Source: an uncultured Spirochaetota bacterium (GTDB lineage Bacteria > Spirochaetota > Spirochaetia > SZUA-6 > Fen-1364). Taken from it: 64,000 nucleotides of DNA. The notes below the pieces were generated by a model that was not told the DNA's origin, searched no databases, and saw only the letters and a list, made by a program, of their open reading frames with translations. The position numbers and the translations under genes are program-made. Positions 11,464 to 15,141 of this stretch are shown here, piece by piece. Numbering within the stretch: the first letter of the stretch is position 1; each line of letters opens with the position of its first letter. The stretch is taken from positions 1,472,001 through 1,536,000 of the forward strand of contig CAWAHW010000002.1 of the NCBI GenBank assembly GCA_963781885.1. The letters run 5' to 3'.

Positions 11464-12207
11464 CTAATCGCTCATCACGAAGCCGGCGGGGATCTCCAGA
11501 TTCGTGGCGACATTCTGGACGTCCTCGTGATCTTCGAGGTGCTCGACGAGGCGCAGGGCCTTTTCCGTCTTGTCGTTGTCCAGCGTGACATTCGTATCGG
11601 CCACGCGCACGATTTCCGCCATGGAGTGCTCGAATCCCTTTGCTTCCATGGCCTTCACGACCGCCTCGAAATCCTCCGGGGAGGTCGTCACCTCGATGGA
11701 GTCCGCGTCCGCGCTCACATCCTCCGCGCCCGCGTCGATGGCGACGGCAAGGATGTCATCCTCCTTGTACTTGGTGGCGTCGTAGTTGATGAGACCCTTG
11801 CGCTTGAACAGGTAGGCGACGCTTCCCGCCGCCCCGAGATTGCCGCCGCCCTTGTTCAGGAGGTTGCGTATCTCCGCGGCCGCCCTGTTCTTATTGTCCG
11901 TGAGGATGTCGATGAGAAGCGCGACGCCCCCCGGGCCGTACGCCTCGTAGAGGATTTCCTCATACGTGACGCCTTCAAGCTCGCCGGTGCCCTTCTTGAT
12001 GGCGCGGTCGATATTGTCCTTGGGCATGTTGGCGGCCTTGGCCTTCAGGATGACGGTGCGCAGCCGGGGGTTCATGTCCGGATCTCCCCCGCCCTGCCGC
12101 GCGGTGATGCTGAGCTCCTTGATGAGCTTCGTGAATGCCTGGCCTCGCTTCGCGTCCGCGATGCCTTTCTTATGCTTGATTGTATGCCATTTGCTATGGC
12201 CTGACAT
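11464..12207 (-). CDS. yebC: YebC/PmpR family protein
   Basis: MSGHSKWHTIKHKKG, NPRLR, YEAYGPGGVA, TDNKNR; classic yebC-ruvCAB context. Confidence 0.96.
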   Translation of the reverse strand: MSGHSKWHTIKHKKGIADAKRGQAFTKLIKELSITARQGGGDPDMNPRLRTVILKAKAANMPKDNIDRAIKKGTGELEGVTYEEILYEAYGPGGVALLIDILTDNKNRAAAEIRNLLNKGGGNLGAAGSVAYLFKRKGLINYDATKYKEDDILAVAIDAGAEDVSADADSIEVTTSPEDFEAVVKAMEAKGFEHSMAEIVRVADTNVTLDNDKTEKALRLVEHLEDHEDVQNVATNLEIPAGFVMSD

Positions 12208-12314
12208 GTTTCCCCTTCTCCTGTTGAAGTTTGAAAAAGAGTATCACACAGCCAAAAAGGTAGTCAAGGTATGCGGGTTTTTGCCAGCAATTGTCGGTTT
12301 GGCAACCGAATGAT

Positions 12315-12397
12315 GCAGTTCTCATTTTGTCCCATGGTAATAGGCCATTCTTGCGCAAGAATGCCCGGTCGTCAGCTCCCGATGGTGCAAAATGAGA
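12315..12397. repeat. Inverted-repeat (hairpin) element whose right arm is interrupted by the IS; continues at 13882-13886
   Basis: Arm GCAGTTCTCATTTTG (12315-12329) is the exact reverse complement of the reconstructed empty site CAAAATG-AGA-ACTGC. Internal perfect palindrome CATTCTTGCGCAAGAATG at 12346-12363. Confidence 0.8.
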
Positions 12398-12500
12398 CAA
12401 TATGAAGTGCCCCCAGGTGGTTGCTACAACGTGGATCGGCCGTATCATGAGATTGGCGTCTCGATGCGGCACGCCACAAACAACGCACAAGGGGGCAGTC

Positions 12501-13595
12501 ATGGGTATTGTACATTACGTTGGCATGGACGTCGACAAAGAAAAGATCGCCATAGCGATCCTGAGCGGGCGCGATCAGAAGCCGAGGGCCGAGACGGTGA
12601 TTCGCAATGAAAAGAGCGTAATCCAGGCCTATTTCAAGAAGCTCCAGTCCGCGGGGGACTTGGTGACATGCTACGAGGCGGGATGTCTAGGGTATTCCCT
12701 GTATCGACAATTGACGGAACTGGGTGTGCCGTGTGCGGTGCTGGCTCCGTCTCAGATTCCACATCGTCCGGGAGATCGCATAAAGACCGATAGAAGGGAC
12801 GCTGTGATGCTTGCTCGCGCACTTCGGAGCGGGGATGTGAGTGCCGTTCATGTACCCACGCGGGAAGACGAAGCGGTTCGCGACTATCTACGAATGCTGG
12901 AGGACATGAAGTCCGATCTGCGCAAGGCCAAGCAGCGCGTGCTGGGTTTTCTTCTGCGGAGGCGGATACGTTATGAACAAGGAGCCACATGGACGCAGCC
13001 GCATCGAGCATGGTTGCAGGCTCTTGAGTTGGAGGATCCGCTGGAGCAGTTGACTCTCACCGAGTACCGCTGCCAAGTCGACGAGCTGGAGGAGAAGTGT
13101 CGGCGGATCAAGGCGGGCATCGAAGAGATCGCGGCACGTAAAAGCTATGCCGAACCTGTAGCCAAGCTGAAGGCGTTCAAGGGCGTGGAGACGCTGATCG
13201 CCTTGTCGCTTGTTTCGGAGATCGGGGACTTTCGGCGCTTTGCAGGTGCGGATCAATTCATGGCGTTTTTGGGGTTGGTGCCCTCCGAGCGATCCAGCGG
13301 AAACAAGAGGCGCTTGGGAGGAATCACAAAGGCGGGTAATTCCCACCTGCGCAAACTTCTGGTGGAGGCCGCCTGGCAATACCGCAGCTACCATCCCAGT
13401 AGCACTCGGTTGATGAAACGACGCGAGGGTCTTTCTCCATCCTTGGTCAGCTATGCCAACCGTGCGTGCAGGCGGCTAAACAAGAAATTTCTGCGTCTGC
13501 TTTTTCGCGGCAAAGCTTCTCAGACCGTGGTGACGGCGGTGGCGCGAGAGCTCTCGGGGTTCCTGTGGGGCGCGATGGTTGATCGGGTGGCTTGA
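12501..13595 (+). CDS. IS110-family DEDD recombinase/transposase
   Basis: RuvC-like motifs VGMDVDK, CYEAG and KTDRRDA; C-terminal GLVPSERSSG...GGITKAGN..LR.LLVEAA, AVAREL. Confidence 0.95.
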   Translation: MGIVHYVGMDVDKEKIAIAILSGRDQKPRAETVIRNEKSVIQAYFKKLQSAGDLVTCYEAGCLGYSLYRQLTELGVPCAVLAPSQIPHRPGDRIKTDRRDAVMLARALRSGDVSAVHVPTREDEAVRDYLRMLEDMKSDLRKAKQRVLGFLLRRRIRYEQGATWTQPHRAWLQALELEDPLEQLTLTEYRCQVDELEEKCRRIKAGIEEIAARKSYAEPVAKLKAFKGVETLIALSLVSEIGDFRRFAGADQFMAFLGLVPSERSSGNKRRLGGITKAGNSHLRKLLVEAAWQYRSYHPSSTRLMKRREGLSPSLVSYANRACRRLNKKFLRLLFRGKASQTVVTAVARELSGFLWGAMVDRVA

Positions 13596-13599
13596 GGAG

Positions 13600-13860
13600 G
13601 CTGCGTATGCAATCGAGGCAACCGGGACGGATGGGGAAGGTTCGTGGCGAACGGAGAATCCTCGAGCGGTTCTGCAGGCAGACTATGGTCTGATCCTGGT
13701 AATGAGACGGAGGCAAGCTCCTGACGATCACATTGGCCTGCGGTAACCAATCCACGCATATCAGACTGGTCGATCGTCGGTTATGCCCTTCTCCATCTCT
13801 TCGGGTTGGCCTCGATGTTCAGAAGGAGTTCTAAAGAAAAAAGGAGGCTTTTAGAGCTTG
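13600..13860 (+). ncRNA. Putative bridge/seek RNA of the IS1111-type element (boundaries approximate)
   Basis: Two stem-internal-loop-stem modules carry target-matching (GCGGTTCT 13666-73, AATGAGA 13701-07) and donor-matching (CATATCAGAC 13757-66) segments. Confidence 0.75.
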
Positions 13861-13902
13861 ACGGGGGCACATCATATCAGAACTGCTGGGGTTTTTGCCC
13901 TG

Positions 13903-15141
13903 TCATGGCCACTGCACCGCGAGCTCCGGCAGGCCGTCTCTCTCGATTTGCACGGCGGCGTCGGCCAGGAGAAGGTCCAGGAGCATGAGGCCATCACCCG
14001 TCAGCCGTATCCGCGGCCCTCCCTCTTCTGGCACGGCCCATCCCTTTCGCTCCCACTGCTCCCACAGCCCGGGCAAGAGCTCTGCGAAGCTCCTGCCGAA
14101 TCGTCTTTCAAAATCCTTTCCCGCGATGCCATCGGCAAGCCTCAGCCCCATCATGAGTGTCTCCAGCAGCAGGTCCCGCGGAGAAACGGTCTCCACCTCG
14201 GCGCCCCACTGTGACTCGGCTCCCTTCAGGAATGCCTCGATGCTCTTGGGGTTGGAAAGCCGCACCGCGGCGCCTTTCTCCGTCCGGGCGCCGAGCAGTC
14301 TCTCCGCGGCTTCCATGGGCAAAGTCGAGACCGCCGCGGGCCCCGCACCTATGTATGGCTCGATCCTCCAATAGCGGATGTTGTGCCGACATTCCTTCCC
14401 TGCCCGCGCGAAATTGGACACCTCGTACTGCGCATACCTTCGGTTCTGCAGGGCAGCCCGACCGGCAAACCAGAGCTCCTCGTCTTTTTCCGCCGGATTC
14501 ATGACGATCTCTCCGCTTTCAACCAGCGCCTCCAGAGGTGTCCCCGGCTCGGTCGTGAGCTGATAGAGCGACACGTGGCCCGGCCAGGATTCGTCGACCA
14601 GCGCAAGGTCGCGCTCAACTTCCGCGACGCTCTGCCCGGGGATGCCGGCAATGAAGTCGAGGCTGAGCTCCCCGCGCCAGGCACGGTGAAGGAGCTCAAC
14701 GGCGTCGAGGCAATTCTTCCGCGATGCGTGACGGCGCAGGAGTGACAGCAACCGGGGCTGCAGACTCTGGATGCCGACGCTGAGGCGTGTGACGCCGGAA
14801 TCGCCGCAGAGCATGAGAAAGTCGCGGTCCAGGGTTTCCGGGTTCGCCTCGACCGTCCATTCCGAGGGCTGAAGCGGTGAGACGAAATCAAGCAACGACT
14901 TGAGCGTCGGTTTTGCGAGCACGCTCGGAGTGCCACCGCCGAAGAATACGGTCTGAACCCGGGGGTTCCCCGCGGCATCCAGCAGACGACGCGCCTGGAG
15001 CAACGTCTGTTCCGCCACGGCTGCCTGCACACTCTCCGTGACGCCGCGTTGGGGAACCGAGTAAAAGTCGCAATACAGGCACTTGTCCGTGCAGAAGGGA
15101 ACGTGGAGGTAGAGTGAAATGCCCTTTTCAGAGCGTGCCAA
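13903..15141 (-). CDS. hemW: Radical SAM heme chaperone HemW (HemN-like)
   Basis: LYLHVPFCTDKCLYCDF (CxxxCxxC), FFGGGTPS, EANPE, RLSVGIQS, YEVSNF, HNIRYW. Confidence 0.88.
   Translation of the reverse strand: MARSEKGISLYLHVPFCTDKCLYCDFYSVPQRGVTESVQAAVAEQTLLQARRLLDAAGNPRVQTVFFGGGTPSVLAKPTLKSLLDFVSPLQPSEWTVEANPETLDRDFLMLCGDSGVTRLSVGIQSLQPRLLSLLRRHASRKNCLDAVELLHRAWRGELSLDFIAGIPGQSVAEVERDLALVDESWPGHVSLYQLTTEPGTPLEALVESGEIVMNPAEKDEELWFAGRAALQNRRYAQYEVSNFARAGKECRHNIRYWRIEPYIGAGPAAVSTLPMEAAERLLGARTEKGAAVRLSNPKSIEAFLKGAESQWGAEVETVSPRDLLLETLMMGLRLADGIAGKDFERRFGRSFAELLPGLWEQWERKGWAVPEEGGPRIRLTGDGLMLLDLLLADAAVQIERDGLPELAVQWP

What the first reader, a model, noticed from the sequence alone, without database searches (positions are those of the whole stretch)
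13600..13881. Bridge/seek RNA of the IS1111-type element can be decoded by eye: target and donor guides match this insertion
Seen: the 3' non-coding region forms two stem-loop modules. In module 1, GGAG/CCTCG pairs with CGGAGG/CTCC and the inner hairpin is CAGG-CAGAC-tatg-GTCTG-at-CCTG. Its internal loop shows GCGGTTCT (13666-73; 7/8 to the bottom strand of the right target, GCAGTTCT) and AATGAGA (13701-07; identical to left target + core). Module 2 is closed by GACGATC/GATCGTC and shows CATATCAGAC (13757-66), 10/10 to the predicted circle junction ...CATATC-AGA-CAAT, plus a weaker CATTG segment matching the other donor arm. TTGACG (13858-63) would pair with GACAAT across the junction (16-bp spacer) to form a promoter on circularisation. 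Established: IS110/IS1111 recombinases use such RNAs, and IS1111 members encode them 3' of the gene. Inference: this is an intact, programmable RNA-guided recombinase from a probable spirochaete, with an AGA-containing core.
Basis: partly seen in the sequence, partly recalled or inferred. Interest (0 to 1): 0.85.

Follow-up and report, generated by a model that had tools for sequence, protein, structure and literature searches.

The report
IS1111-type insertion sequence with guide RNA

Summary
Window 12397-13880 is a roughly 1.48-kb IS110-family element of the IS1111 group. It has a 364-aa DEDD transposase, 15-bp subterminal inverted repeats, and a 3' non-coding bridge/seek RNA.

A covariance model built from 30 homologues hits the window once, at 13652-13778 on the + strand. 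It hits 92 of 93 searched sources. Its 24 base pairs are strongly covariation-supported.

The 5' strand of the target loop (AGCGGTTCT, 13665-73) pairs with the right flank AGAACTGCT, with one G.T wobble. The 3' strand (AATGAG, 13701-06) equals the left flank plus core. Across 63 non-redundant homologues this 5' guide matches its own right flank by 6 or more contiguous bases in 45, against 49 of 3900 mismatched pairings.

The donor module carries CATATCAG, which equals the right end.

- The family-conserved core is AG, not AGA.
- The last two bases of the "10/10" donor match are not family-supported.
- The second donor guide has only weak support.
- Folding energy alone is not significant.

Eight identical RNA-gene copies sit in the same repeat-borne target, so the element is recently active. 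No RNA or circle evidence was obtainable. Verdict: a new member of a known kind.

The parts
12285..12396 (+). Left part of the roughly 120-bp palindromic host repeat that carries the target. It holds an internal inverted copy of the target (GCAGTTCTCATTTTG, 12315-12329). It ends in the left target CAAAATG plus core AG (12388-12396).
   Evidence: All 8 left junctions in the genome lie in this repeat. 13 of the 17 free AATGAGAACTGC sites are the internal inverted copy.
12397..13880 (+). The insertion sequence, counted with one AG core copy. The unambiguous element sequence is 12398-13878. AGA is shared at both junctions (12395-97 and 13879-81).
   Evidence: 7 near-full matches (1505-1521 nt) and 2 partial matches in the genome, all listed at 100%. 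8 identical left ends and 8 identical right ends.
12400..12414 (+). Left subterminal inverted repeat, ATATGAAGTGCCCCC.
   Evidence: Read. It matches the reverse complement of 13863-13877 at 14 of 15 positions.
12501..13595 (+). Transposase/recombinase gene, 364 aa from MGIVHY. It contains the GLVPSERSSG motif.
   Evidence: Pfam PF01548 and PF02371. NCBIfam NF033542 'IS110 family RNA-guided transposase', 237 bits against a cut-off of 140. IS621 transposase 8wt6, E 1.1e-7.
13612..13648 (+). 5' strand of a long closing helix. It pairs with 13780-13816.
   Evidence: MFE pair table. Own-flank duplex energy averages -52.2 kcal/mol against -28.4 for non-own pairings, over 82 loci.
13652..13778 (+). 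Core bridge/seek RNA scaffold: target-binding module 13652-13721 and donor module 13723-13778.
   Evidence: The only hit of model R1 in the 64-kb window, 89.7 bits, E 6.4e-18, + strand.
13665..13673 (+). Right-target guide AGCGGTTCT, on the 5' side of the target loop. It is complementary to the top strand AGAACTGCT, with one rG.dT wobble.
13701..13707 (+). Left-target guide AATG plus core AG (13701-06), followed by A13707. A13707 equals the first base of the left end and behaves as a handshake-like position.
   Evidence: The base after AG equals the first left-end base in 49 of 50 loci, against 56% for non-own pairings.
13730..13737 (+). Candidate right-donor guide ACATTGGC. It is complementary in register to G+ACAATAT of the left end. 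The 9-nt comparison, which includes C13729, scores 7 of 9. Support is weak.
   Evidence: In-register test: own mean 3.75 of 9 against 2.92 non-own, and the window scores highest. No signal in the free-register test.
13757..13764 (+). Left-donor guide CATATC plus core AG. It is identical to the right end at 13873-13880.
   Evidence: Five loci with a single-base variant of this segment carry the same variant at their right end: L045, L076, L097, L104, L042. Two loci, L049 and L056, do not.
13780..13816 (+). 3' strand of the closing helix.
13858..13863 (+). Outward-facing -35 hexamer TTGACG in the right end. It is the predicted half of a junction promoter.
   Evidence: TTGAC lies 16-19 nt before the end of AG in 69 of 71 right ends. 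The -10 half lies across the junction and is inferred.
13863..13877 (+). Right subterminal inverted repeat, GGGGGCACATCATAT.
13881..13888 (+). Right target AACTGCTG, the end of the host repeat.
   Evidence: All 8 right junctions read AGAACTGCTG.

Best explanation
Window 12397-13880 is an intact, recently active IS110-family insertion sequence of the IS1111 group.

Its 3' non-coding region encodes, on the transposase strand, a structured RNA of about 127 nt (13652-13778). A long closing helix (13612-13648 with 13780-13816) encloses it.

Module 1 is an internal loop. Its 5' strand (AGCGGUUCU) pairs with the top strand of core plus right target. Its 3' strand (AAUGAG) pairs with the bottom strand of left target plus core. 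Together they specify the site CAAAATG-AG-AACTGCT, which lies at one end of a palindromic host repeat.

Module 2 presents CAUAUCAG, which is identical to the right end plus core. This is the donor guide for the joined ends of the excised circle.

Shown here: the anatomy, the conserved structure, the covariation of guides with flanks, and site-specific insertion at 8 loci.

Inferred from published IS621, ISEc11 and related work:
- the RNA binds the DEDD recombinase;
- the element excises as a circle;
- the joined ends form a promoter;
- recombination crosses over at the AG core.
For: Protein: PF01548 and PF02371. NF033542 at 237 bits against a cut-off of 140. IS621 transposase is the best solved relative.

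Structure:
- Seed alignment: 24 pairs, 93.7% paired, 12 pairs with compensatory change, 0 of 500 shuffles as high.
- 86 distinct model-aligned rows: 94.2% paired and 20 of 24 pairs compensatory. This alignment is fitted to the model and so leans towards it.
- G.U is the commonest pair at one position (52 of 86 rows). That fits RNA on this strand and not the complement.
- The model hits 92 of 93 sources, always downstream of the gene.
- It hits the own genome 8 times.

Guides:
- 45 of 63 own pairings against 49 of 3900 non-own reach 6 contiguous matches.
- The closest relatives (60-65% protein identity) keep the scaffold. Their guide ACTGAACT sits next to the flank AGTTCAGT.
- The B strand carries AG in 52 of 52 loci, and the left flank ends in AG in 50 of 52.
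- Single-base variants of the donor segment are mirrored at the right end in 5 loci.

Activity: 8 identical ends, all in the same target.

Literature:
- Guide order and NCR position as in PMC11187229 (sections 6, 9, 10, 13 and 14 read).
- IS1111 bridge RNAs lie in the right end, with donor bases often in a multiloop (PMC11208160, passages read).
Against: - No RNA run holds the element, and the contig-level read laying showed no circle junction. Expression and excision are therefore untested.
- Folding energy is not better than shuffles for the core (z +0.67). It is only marginal for the whole NCR (z -1.80).
- 18 of 63 loci, the window among them, have fewer than 6 exact contiguous guide-flank matches.
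- The left-target guide is short. Own pairings match on average 2.69 of 5 bases upstream of AG, against 1.58 for non-own.
- The window's donor hairpin has a C.A mismatch.
- The second donor guide is weak.
- For ISEc11, an 82-nt RNA holding only the target matches sufficed for transposition (PMC11187229, section 10). The role of module 2 is therefore not established for this group.
- Homologues are related to one another, so the own-versus-non-own counts overstate independence.
Confidence: 0.9

Rival explanations
1. Only module 1 is a guide, acting as a seekRNA. Module 2 (13723-13778) would not read the donor by base pairing. It would instead be a conserved scaffold, a processing element or a protein-binding element. 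End recognition would rest on the transposase binding the subterminal inverted repeats.
For: For ISEc11 the 82-nt short RNA moved a mini-IS better than the 154-nt long form, 42% against 15% (PMC11187229, section 10). The authors stress that IS1111 end recognition may differ from IS110 (section 14). Here the second donor guide shows no signal in a free-register test. CATATCAG is nearly invariant across the family, so most loci cannot test pairing.
Against: Five loci with a one-base variant in this segment carry the same variant at their right end. Two do not. The base after AG in module 2 tracks the first target base, 25/50 own against 26% non-own. That is the crosswise 'handshake' pattern described for IS621 (PMC11208158, passages read). 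Module 2 is as conserved and as covariation-supported as module 1.
Confidence: 0.2
2. The conserved 3' region acts as DNA, for example as transposase-binding sites or part of the end structure, and no functional RNA is made.
For: No RNA evidence was obtainable. The region lies inside the right end, where protein-binding DNA sites are expected.
Against: Compensatory changes keep pairing in 20 of 24 positions. G.U pairs are frequent and would be A.C on the other strand. The loop strands covary with sequences outside the element. A protein-binding DNA site would not explain that. Related elements co-purify with such RNAs (PMC11187229, abstract and sections read).
Confidence: 0.03
3. The matches in this copy are chance, or the element is a dead relic.
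For: Each single match is short (7-10 nt). One guide has a non-Watson-Crick position.
Against: With wobble allowed, the window's guide-flank run of 9 is reached by 6 of 3900 non-own pairings. There are 8 identical copies with an open reading frame, all in the same site and orientation relative to the repeat.
Confidence: 0.02

Closest known systems
IS1111-group seekRNA elements (ISEc11, ISPa11, ISKpn4, ISPst6; Siddiquee et al. 2024, PMC11187229)
   Same: - DEDD transposase with the GL-P----S/TG motif.
- Subterminal inverted repeats.
- Long non-coding region downstream of the gene.
- The top-strand match lies 5' of the bottom-strand match, and the two overlap in the target.
- One specific target, here inside a repeat.
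- Outward -35 in the right end.
   Different: - The transposase is 364 aa, against the 330-350 aa quoted for the group.
- The target is different.
- Nothing has been shown experimentally for this element.
- I did not compare sequences with those named elements directly, because none was in the collections I searched by name.
IS621 bridge RNA system (IS110 group; Durrant et al. 2024, PMC11208160; Hiraizumi et al. 2024, PMC11208158)
   Same: - One RNA with a target module and a donor module.
- Each strand of a loop reads one DNA strand on one side of a 2-nt core.
- Cross-covarying positions next to the core resemble its handshake guides.
- The recombinase is a detectable relative (E 1.1e-7 over residues 222-289).
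   Different: - The RNA lies 3' of the gene, not 5'.
- The order of the two target guides is reversed.
- The core is AG, not CT.
- The donor bases sit in a multi-branched module rather than a simple internal loop.
- The subterminal repeats are long.
- Protein similarity is confined to the C-terminal domain in this search.
IS110-family transposases on Leptospira interrogans plasmids (best plasmid-database hits)
   Same: 46.5% identity over 97% of the protein. The host phylum is the same, Spirochaetota. That Leptospira belongs to this phylum is recalled, not tested.
   Different: I did not examine their non-coding regions or their targets. A link to IS1533, named in PMC11187229 as an abundant IS1111 member, is recalled and was not tested.

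Membership tests
IS110 family (DEDD transposases) | N-terminal DEDD/RuvC-like domain and C-terminal Transposase_20 domain | tested here: met
   PF01548 at E 3e-13 and PF02371 at E 4.1e-22. NF033542 at 237.3 bits against a cut-off of 140.
IS110 family (DEDD transposases) | Conserved G--P----S/T-G motif with the catalytic serine | tested here: met
   GLVPSERSSG is in the ORF. S265, S266 and G267 are invariant in the 5-sequence alignment.
IS110 family (DEDD transposases) | The four acidic catalytic residues | tested here: inconclusive
   D10, E59, D97 and D100 are invariant in 5 sequences. Their numbering lies near IS621 D11, E60, D102 and D105. No structural or pairwise mapping was done.
IS1111 group | Subterminal inverted repeats of 7-17 bp with short terminal extensions | tested here: met
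   12400-12414 against the reverse complement of 13863-13877 matches at 14 of 15 positions. Extensions beyond them: ACA at the left and C at the right, next to the AG core.
IS1111 group | The longer non-coding region lies downstream of the transposase gene | tested here: met
   The 3' NCR is 13596-13880, about 285 nt. The 5' NCR is 12397-12500, about 104 nt.
IS1111 group | In the RNA, the segment complementary to the top strand lies 5' of the segment complementary to the bottom strand | tested here: met
   13665-73 reads the top strand and 13701-06 reads the bottom strand. The same order holds across homologues.
IS1111 group | Insertion at one specific sequence in one orientation | tested here: met
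   8 of 8 junction pairs lie in CAAAATGAG|...|AGAACTGCTG.
Bridge RNA (bispecific, IS621-like) | Target loop with guides for both strands flanking a shared core | tested here: met
Bridge RNA (bispecific, IS621-like) | Donor loop with guides for both donor arms | tested here: inconclusive
   The left-donor segment CATATCAG matches the right end, and variants are mirrored in 5 loci. The right-donor segment scores only 3.75 against 2.92 of 9 in register, and shows nothing in a free register.
Bridge RNA (bispecific, IS621-like) | The RNA is expressed and bound by the recombinase | not testable with these tools
   No RNA holder was listed.
Bridge RNA (bispecific, IS621-like) | Circular intermediate with a junction promoter | tested here: inconclusive
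   TTGAC is conserved in 69 of 71 right ends. No joint was seen in contigs of 4 runs, and contigs cannot show absence.
Rfam families | Match to a curated RNA family | tested here: not met
   No match up to E = 1 in 12200-14000.

The most novel reading that the evidence does not exclude
IS1111-type guide RNAs may carry the same crosswise 'handshake' logic as IS621, in a different architecture.
- The base after the AG core on the target-loop 3' strand reads the first base of the element's left end, 49/50 own against 56% non-own.
- The base after AG in the donor module reads the first base of the target, 25/50 own against 26% non-own.

The core also looks asymmetric.
- Left junctions are AG in 50 of 52 loci.
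- Right junctions are AG in 39, AA in 8, and AT, AC and GG in 1 each, of 50.
- Where I inspected the non-AG cases by eye, the right-target guide matches the dinucleotide actually found. I made no count of this.

This would mean that only the first core base is fixed in this subfamily, or that one product strand is inherited preferentially.

My one search for papers holding both 'handshake guide' and 'IS1111' found three. In two of them IS1111 stands only in the reference list. The third uses it only in general statements.
Probability: 0.35. Interest if true: 0.5.

Novelty: new member of a known kind. Interest (0 to 1): 0.33.

Why it matters
It adds a well-delimited, apparently active IS1111-type RNA-guided recombinase from an uncultured spirochaete. 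Its ends, its target and its empty sites are all defined. In this genome the guide tolerates one G.T position. A single extra paired base appears to separate used sites from unused sites that share the same 12-mer.

The 126-position covariance model found the same RNA scaffold next to relatives in MAGs and isolates labelled as many different phyla, including Acidobacteriota, Nitrospirota, Chloroflexota and several proteobacterial classes. Rfam release 15 gave no match to this region. The model could serve for annotation.

None of this changes the known mechanism. The value is as a catalogue entry and as a natural data set for the rules of IS1111-type guides.

Tried and rejected
- Rfam scan of 12200-14000: no match.
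- Thermodynamic folding alone: not significant for the core (z +0.67). The MFE did not reproduce the family donor module. I rely on covariation instead.
- Free-register search for a right-donor guide: own mean 4.17 against 4.11 non-own, so no signal. An in-register test gave a modest signal.
- A 3-nt core (AGN shared at both junctions) as a family rule: rejected. The base after AG on the target-loop 3' strand equals the first target base in only 11 of 50 loci, against 21% for non-own pairings. The closest relative shares only AG.
- A CA core: rejected because the empty target has no CA.
- Sequencing runs: 8 DNA holders from 5 studies were listed and no RNA holder.
- Contigs of 4 runs laid on 12100-14100 gave no joints, so nothing on a circle or an empty site. 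Contigs cannot show absence.
- Empty sites for an 'AA-type' relative (L113), searched by a gapped pattern in its genome: 26 hits against 46 for the reversed control. The four 11-mer hits lie in an unrelated inverted repeat. Inconclusive.
- Right ends could not be placed in 21 of 92 loci, and left ends in a further 11. These loci are left out of the junction counts.
- L014's left end was mis-placed by the automatic step. It was dropped.
- L018 gave no model hit.
- Supplementary files of the papers were not seen. The supplementary figures of PMC11187229 and PMC11208160, with folds and guide maps of other IS1111 members, may already show the handshake-like positions or this scaffold.

Full report
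**What is there**

The finding lies in the 3' part of an insertion sequence. An open frame at 12501-13595 encodes a 364-aa protein. It carries Pfam DEDD_Tnp_IS110 and Transposase_20. It scores 237 bits against NCBIfam NF033542, 'IS110 family RNA-guided transposase', whose cut-off is 140. Its best solved relative is the IS621 transposase, with E 1.1e-7 over residues 222-289.

The window's own genome has 7 contigs, 4.64 Mb and about 63% G+C. It holds 7 near-full matches and 2 partial matches of the element, all listed at 100%.

- All 8 left ends found are preceded by ..CAAAATGAG.
- All 8 right ends are followed by AGAACTGCTG.
- Left junction in the window: CAAAATG-AG-A|CAATATG, with AGA at 12395-97.
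- Right junction in the window: CATATC-AG-A|ACTGCTG, with AGA at 13879-81.
- A 15-bp subterminal inverted repeat (12400-12414 against 13863-13877, 14 of 15) lies just inside the ends.

**The target**

The target is the right end of a palindromic host repeat of about 120 bp. The uninterrupted 12-mer AATGAGAACTGC occurs 17 times elsewhere in the genome.

- 13 copies are an internal inverted copy within the same repeat. They are followed by A (12 copies) or G (1 copy). None is occupied.
- 3 copies are unoccupied terminal copies.
- 1 copy is unrelated.

The occupied sites all continue with T. Four free 13-mers of that kind remain.

All are at the stated coordinates. The 5' strand of the module-1 loop is best read as 9 nt, AGCGGTTCT (13665-73). 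It pairs with AGAACTGCT of the top strand, with one rG.dT position. Its first base pairs with the T that separates used sites from unused sites. The 3' strand, AATGAG (13701-06), is identical to the left target plus AG. CATATCAG (13757-64) is identical to the right end plus AG.

**Is it an RNA, and is it conserved?**

Relatives came from two searches: related genomes and GTDB species genomes. The second search confirmed 592 of 600 candidate stretches and kept 80 loci. Their 3' regions share a scaffold.

An alignment of 30 of them supports a 24-pair structure.

- 93.7% of cells are paired, against 34-48% when partners are slid by 1-3 columns.
- 12 pairs show changes on both sides.
- None of 500 shuffles reaches the observed values.

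A covariance model built from this alignment gave 93 matches in 92 of 93 sources. These include relatives that were not in the seed. There is one match in the 64-kb window, at 13652-13778 on the + strand with 89.7 bits. There are 8 matches in the own genome.

On the model-fitted alignment, which leans towards the model, 94.2% of cells pair. 20 of 24 pairs have compensatory changes, and G.U is the commonest pair at one position. G.U pairs point to RNA of this strand.

A long helix closes the whole unit. In the window it is 13612-13648 with 13780-13816. Own flanks pair far better than flanks from different loci, -52.2 against -28.4 kcal/mol over 82 loci.

Rfam has no match. Folding energy alone is unconvincing (z -1.80 and +0.67).

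**Do the loops read the flanks?**

I took the loop strands from the model alignment. I placed right ends in 71 of 92 loci and left ends in 60.

*Right-target guide.*
- Among 63 loci non-redundant by guide pair, the reverse complement of the 5' strand shares 6 or more contiguous bases with its own right junction in 45.
- Non-own pairings reach this in 49 of 3900.
- Eighteen loci fall below 6. The window is among them, with 5, because of the wobble.
- With wobble allowed the window scores 9, which 6 of 3900 non-own pairings reach.
- The closest relatives (60-65% protein identity) keep the scaffold. Their guide ACTGAACT lies next to the flank AGTTCAGT. This is a natural re-direction like ISEc11 and ISXne4 (PMC11187229, section 10).

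*Left-target guide.*
- The 3' strand carries AG in 52 of 52 loci.
- The left flank ends in AG in 50 of 52.
- The five bases upstream match the own flank at a mean of 2.69, against 1.58 for non-own.
- This guide is short. The window, with AATG, is at the high end.

**The core**

AGA is the overlap in this element. The closest relative shares only AG. AG is also what the family keeps in the left junction, in the 3' strand of the target loop and in the donor segment.

Right junctions vary: AG in 39, AA in 8, and AT, AC and GG in 1 each, of 50. In the cases I inspected, the right-target guide follows the dinucleotide actually found.

**The donor module**

The family structure has four parts:
- GACG/CGTC, extended to 7 bp in the window;
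- a middle helix, GGCC/GGTC in the window;
- a hairpin GCGG/CCGC, with a C.A mismatch in the window;
- a single-stranded CG-N-ATATCAG-NN.

This fits the remark that IS1111 donor bases often sit in a multiloop (PMC11208160, passage read).

The segment is nearly invariant, as are the right ends. Five loci with a one-base variant show the same variant at their right end: L045, L076, L097, L104 and L042. Two loci, L049 and L056, do not.

- The first tracks the first target base, 25/50 own against 26% non-own.
- It does not track the left end, 48% against 49%.
- The second tracks neither.

The base after AG in the target loop equals the first left-end base in 49 of 50 loci, against 56% for non-own. 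This crosswise pattern resembles the handshake guides of IS621 (PMC11208158, passages read).

The candidate second donor guide, ACATTGGC (13730-37), has weak in-register support: 3.75 against 2.92 of 9, with the window highest at 7. A free-register test gives nothing.

**Promoter**

TTGAC lies 16-19 nt before the end of AG in 69 of 71 right ends. CAATAT after 18 nt is an alternative. A junction promoter is known for the group. I saw it only in a reference title for ISEc11 and in the discussion of PMC11187229. Here it is inferred.

**Host**

L015 comes from a genome that the tool calls the same genus. It is 3000/3000 identical to a record titled 'uncultured Spirochaetota bacterium'.

**What could not be tested**

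Expression, protein binding and circle formation could not be tested. No RNA holder was listed. Contigs of four runs showed no joints.

For ISEc11 an 82-nt RNA with only the target matches was sufficient (PMC11187229, section 10). The function of module 2 therefore remains the main open point.

**Verdict**

The system is an ordinary, intact member of the IS1111 group of RNA-guided insertion sequences, and it is new only as a member.

Noticed in passing
window 12285-12396 and 13881-13888; copies elsewhere in the genome: The target lies in a nested palindromic repeat of about 120 bp. The repeat has terminal inverted repeats (CAGCA[A/G]TTCTCA), an internal inverted copy of the target, and a central hairpin. 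The motif GCAGTTCTCATTTTG occurs 15 times in the genome. The nature of the repeat (REP-like or MITE-like) was not determined, and Rfam found nothing in it.
   Followed up: partly
L097 2673-2808 and 2845-2972 (Halomonas sp. HK25 chromosome): This locus has two model hits. The right end of one copy is followed directly by the 3' half of another copy's target loop (...ACCAGGGCAGCTCCGCGACG). One element seems to have inserted into the RNA gene of another, at the place where the RNA gene mimics the left target.
   Followed up: no
L066 (Holophagaceae MAG), flanks of the element: Both flanks carry nearly the same 11-12 nt: AACGGGGATGAG on the left and AACGGGGATGAAG on the right. This is either a tandem target or a duplication, and no other locus looked like this.
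   Followed up: no
window 12668-12931 and 13351-13775: Contigs of a peat metagenome run from another study (X2) match these pieces of the element without a single difference. They include the whole RNA scaffold. That run's only piece of the left host flank (12107-12248) differs from the window at 14 letters. The same element therefore seems to occur elsewhere in a related but different host background.
   Followed up: no
window 12402-12500: The open frame extends 33 codons upstream of the conserved start (397 aa from ATG 12402). Homologues and an AAGGGGG ribosome-binding site favour the start at 12501.
   Followed up: partly
L040 (2,060-bp contig labelled Terriglobales) against L011 (same genus as the window): These two loci have nearly the same element and the same guides, but are filed under different phyla. 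This could be horizontal transfer or a binning error of a short contig.
   Followed up: no
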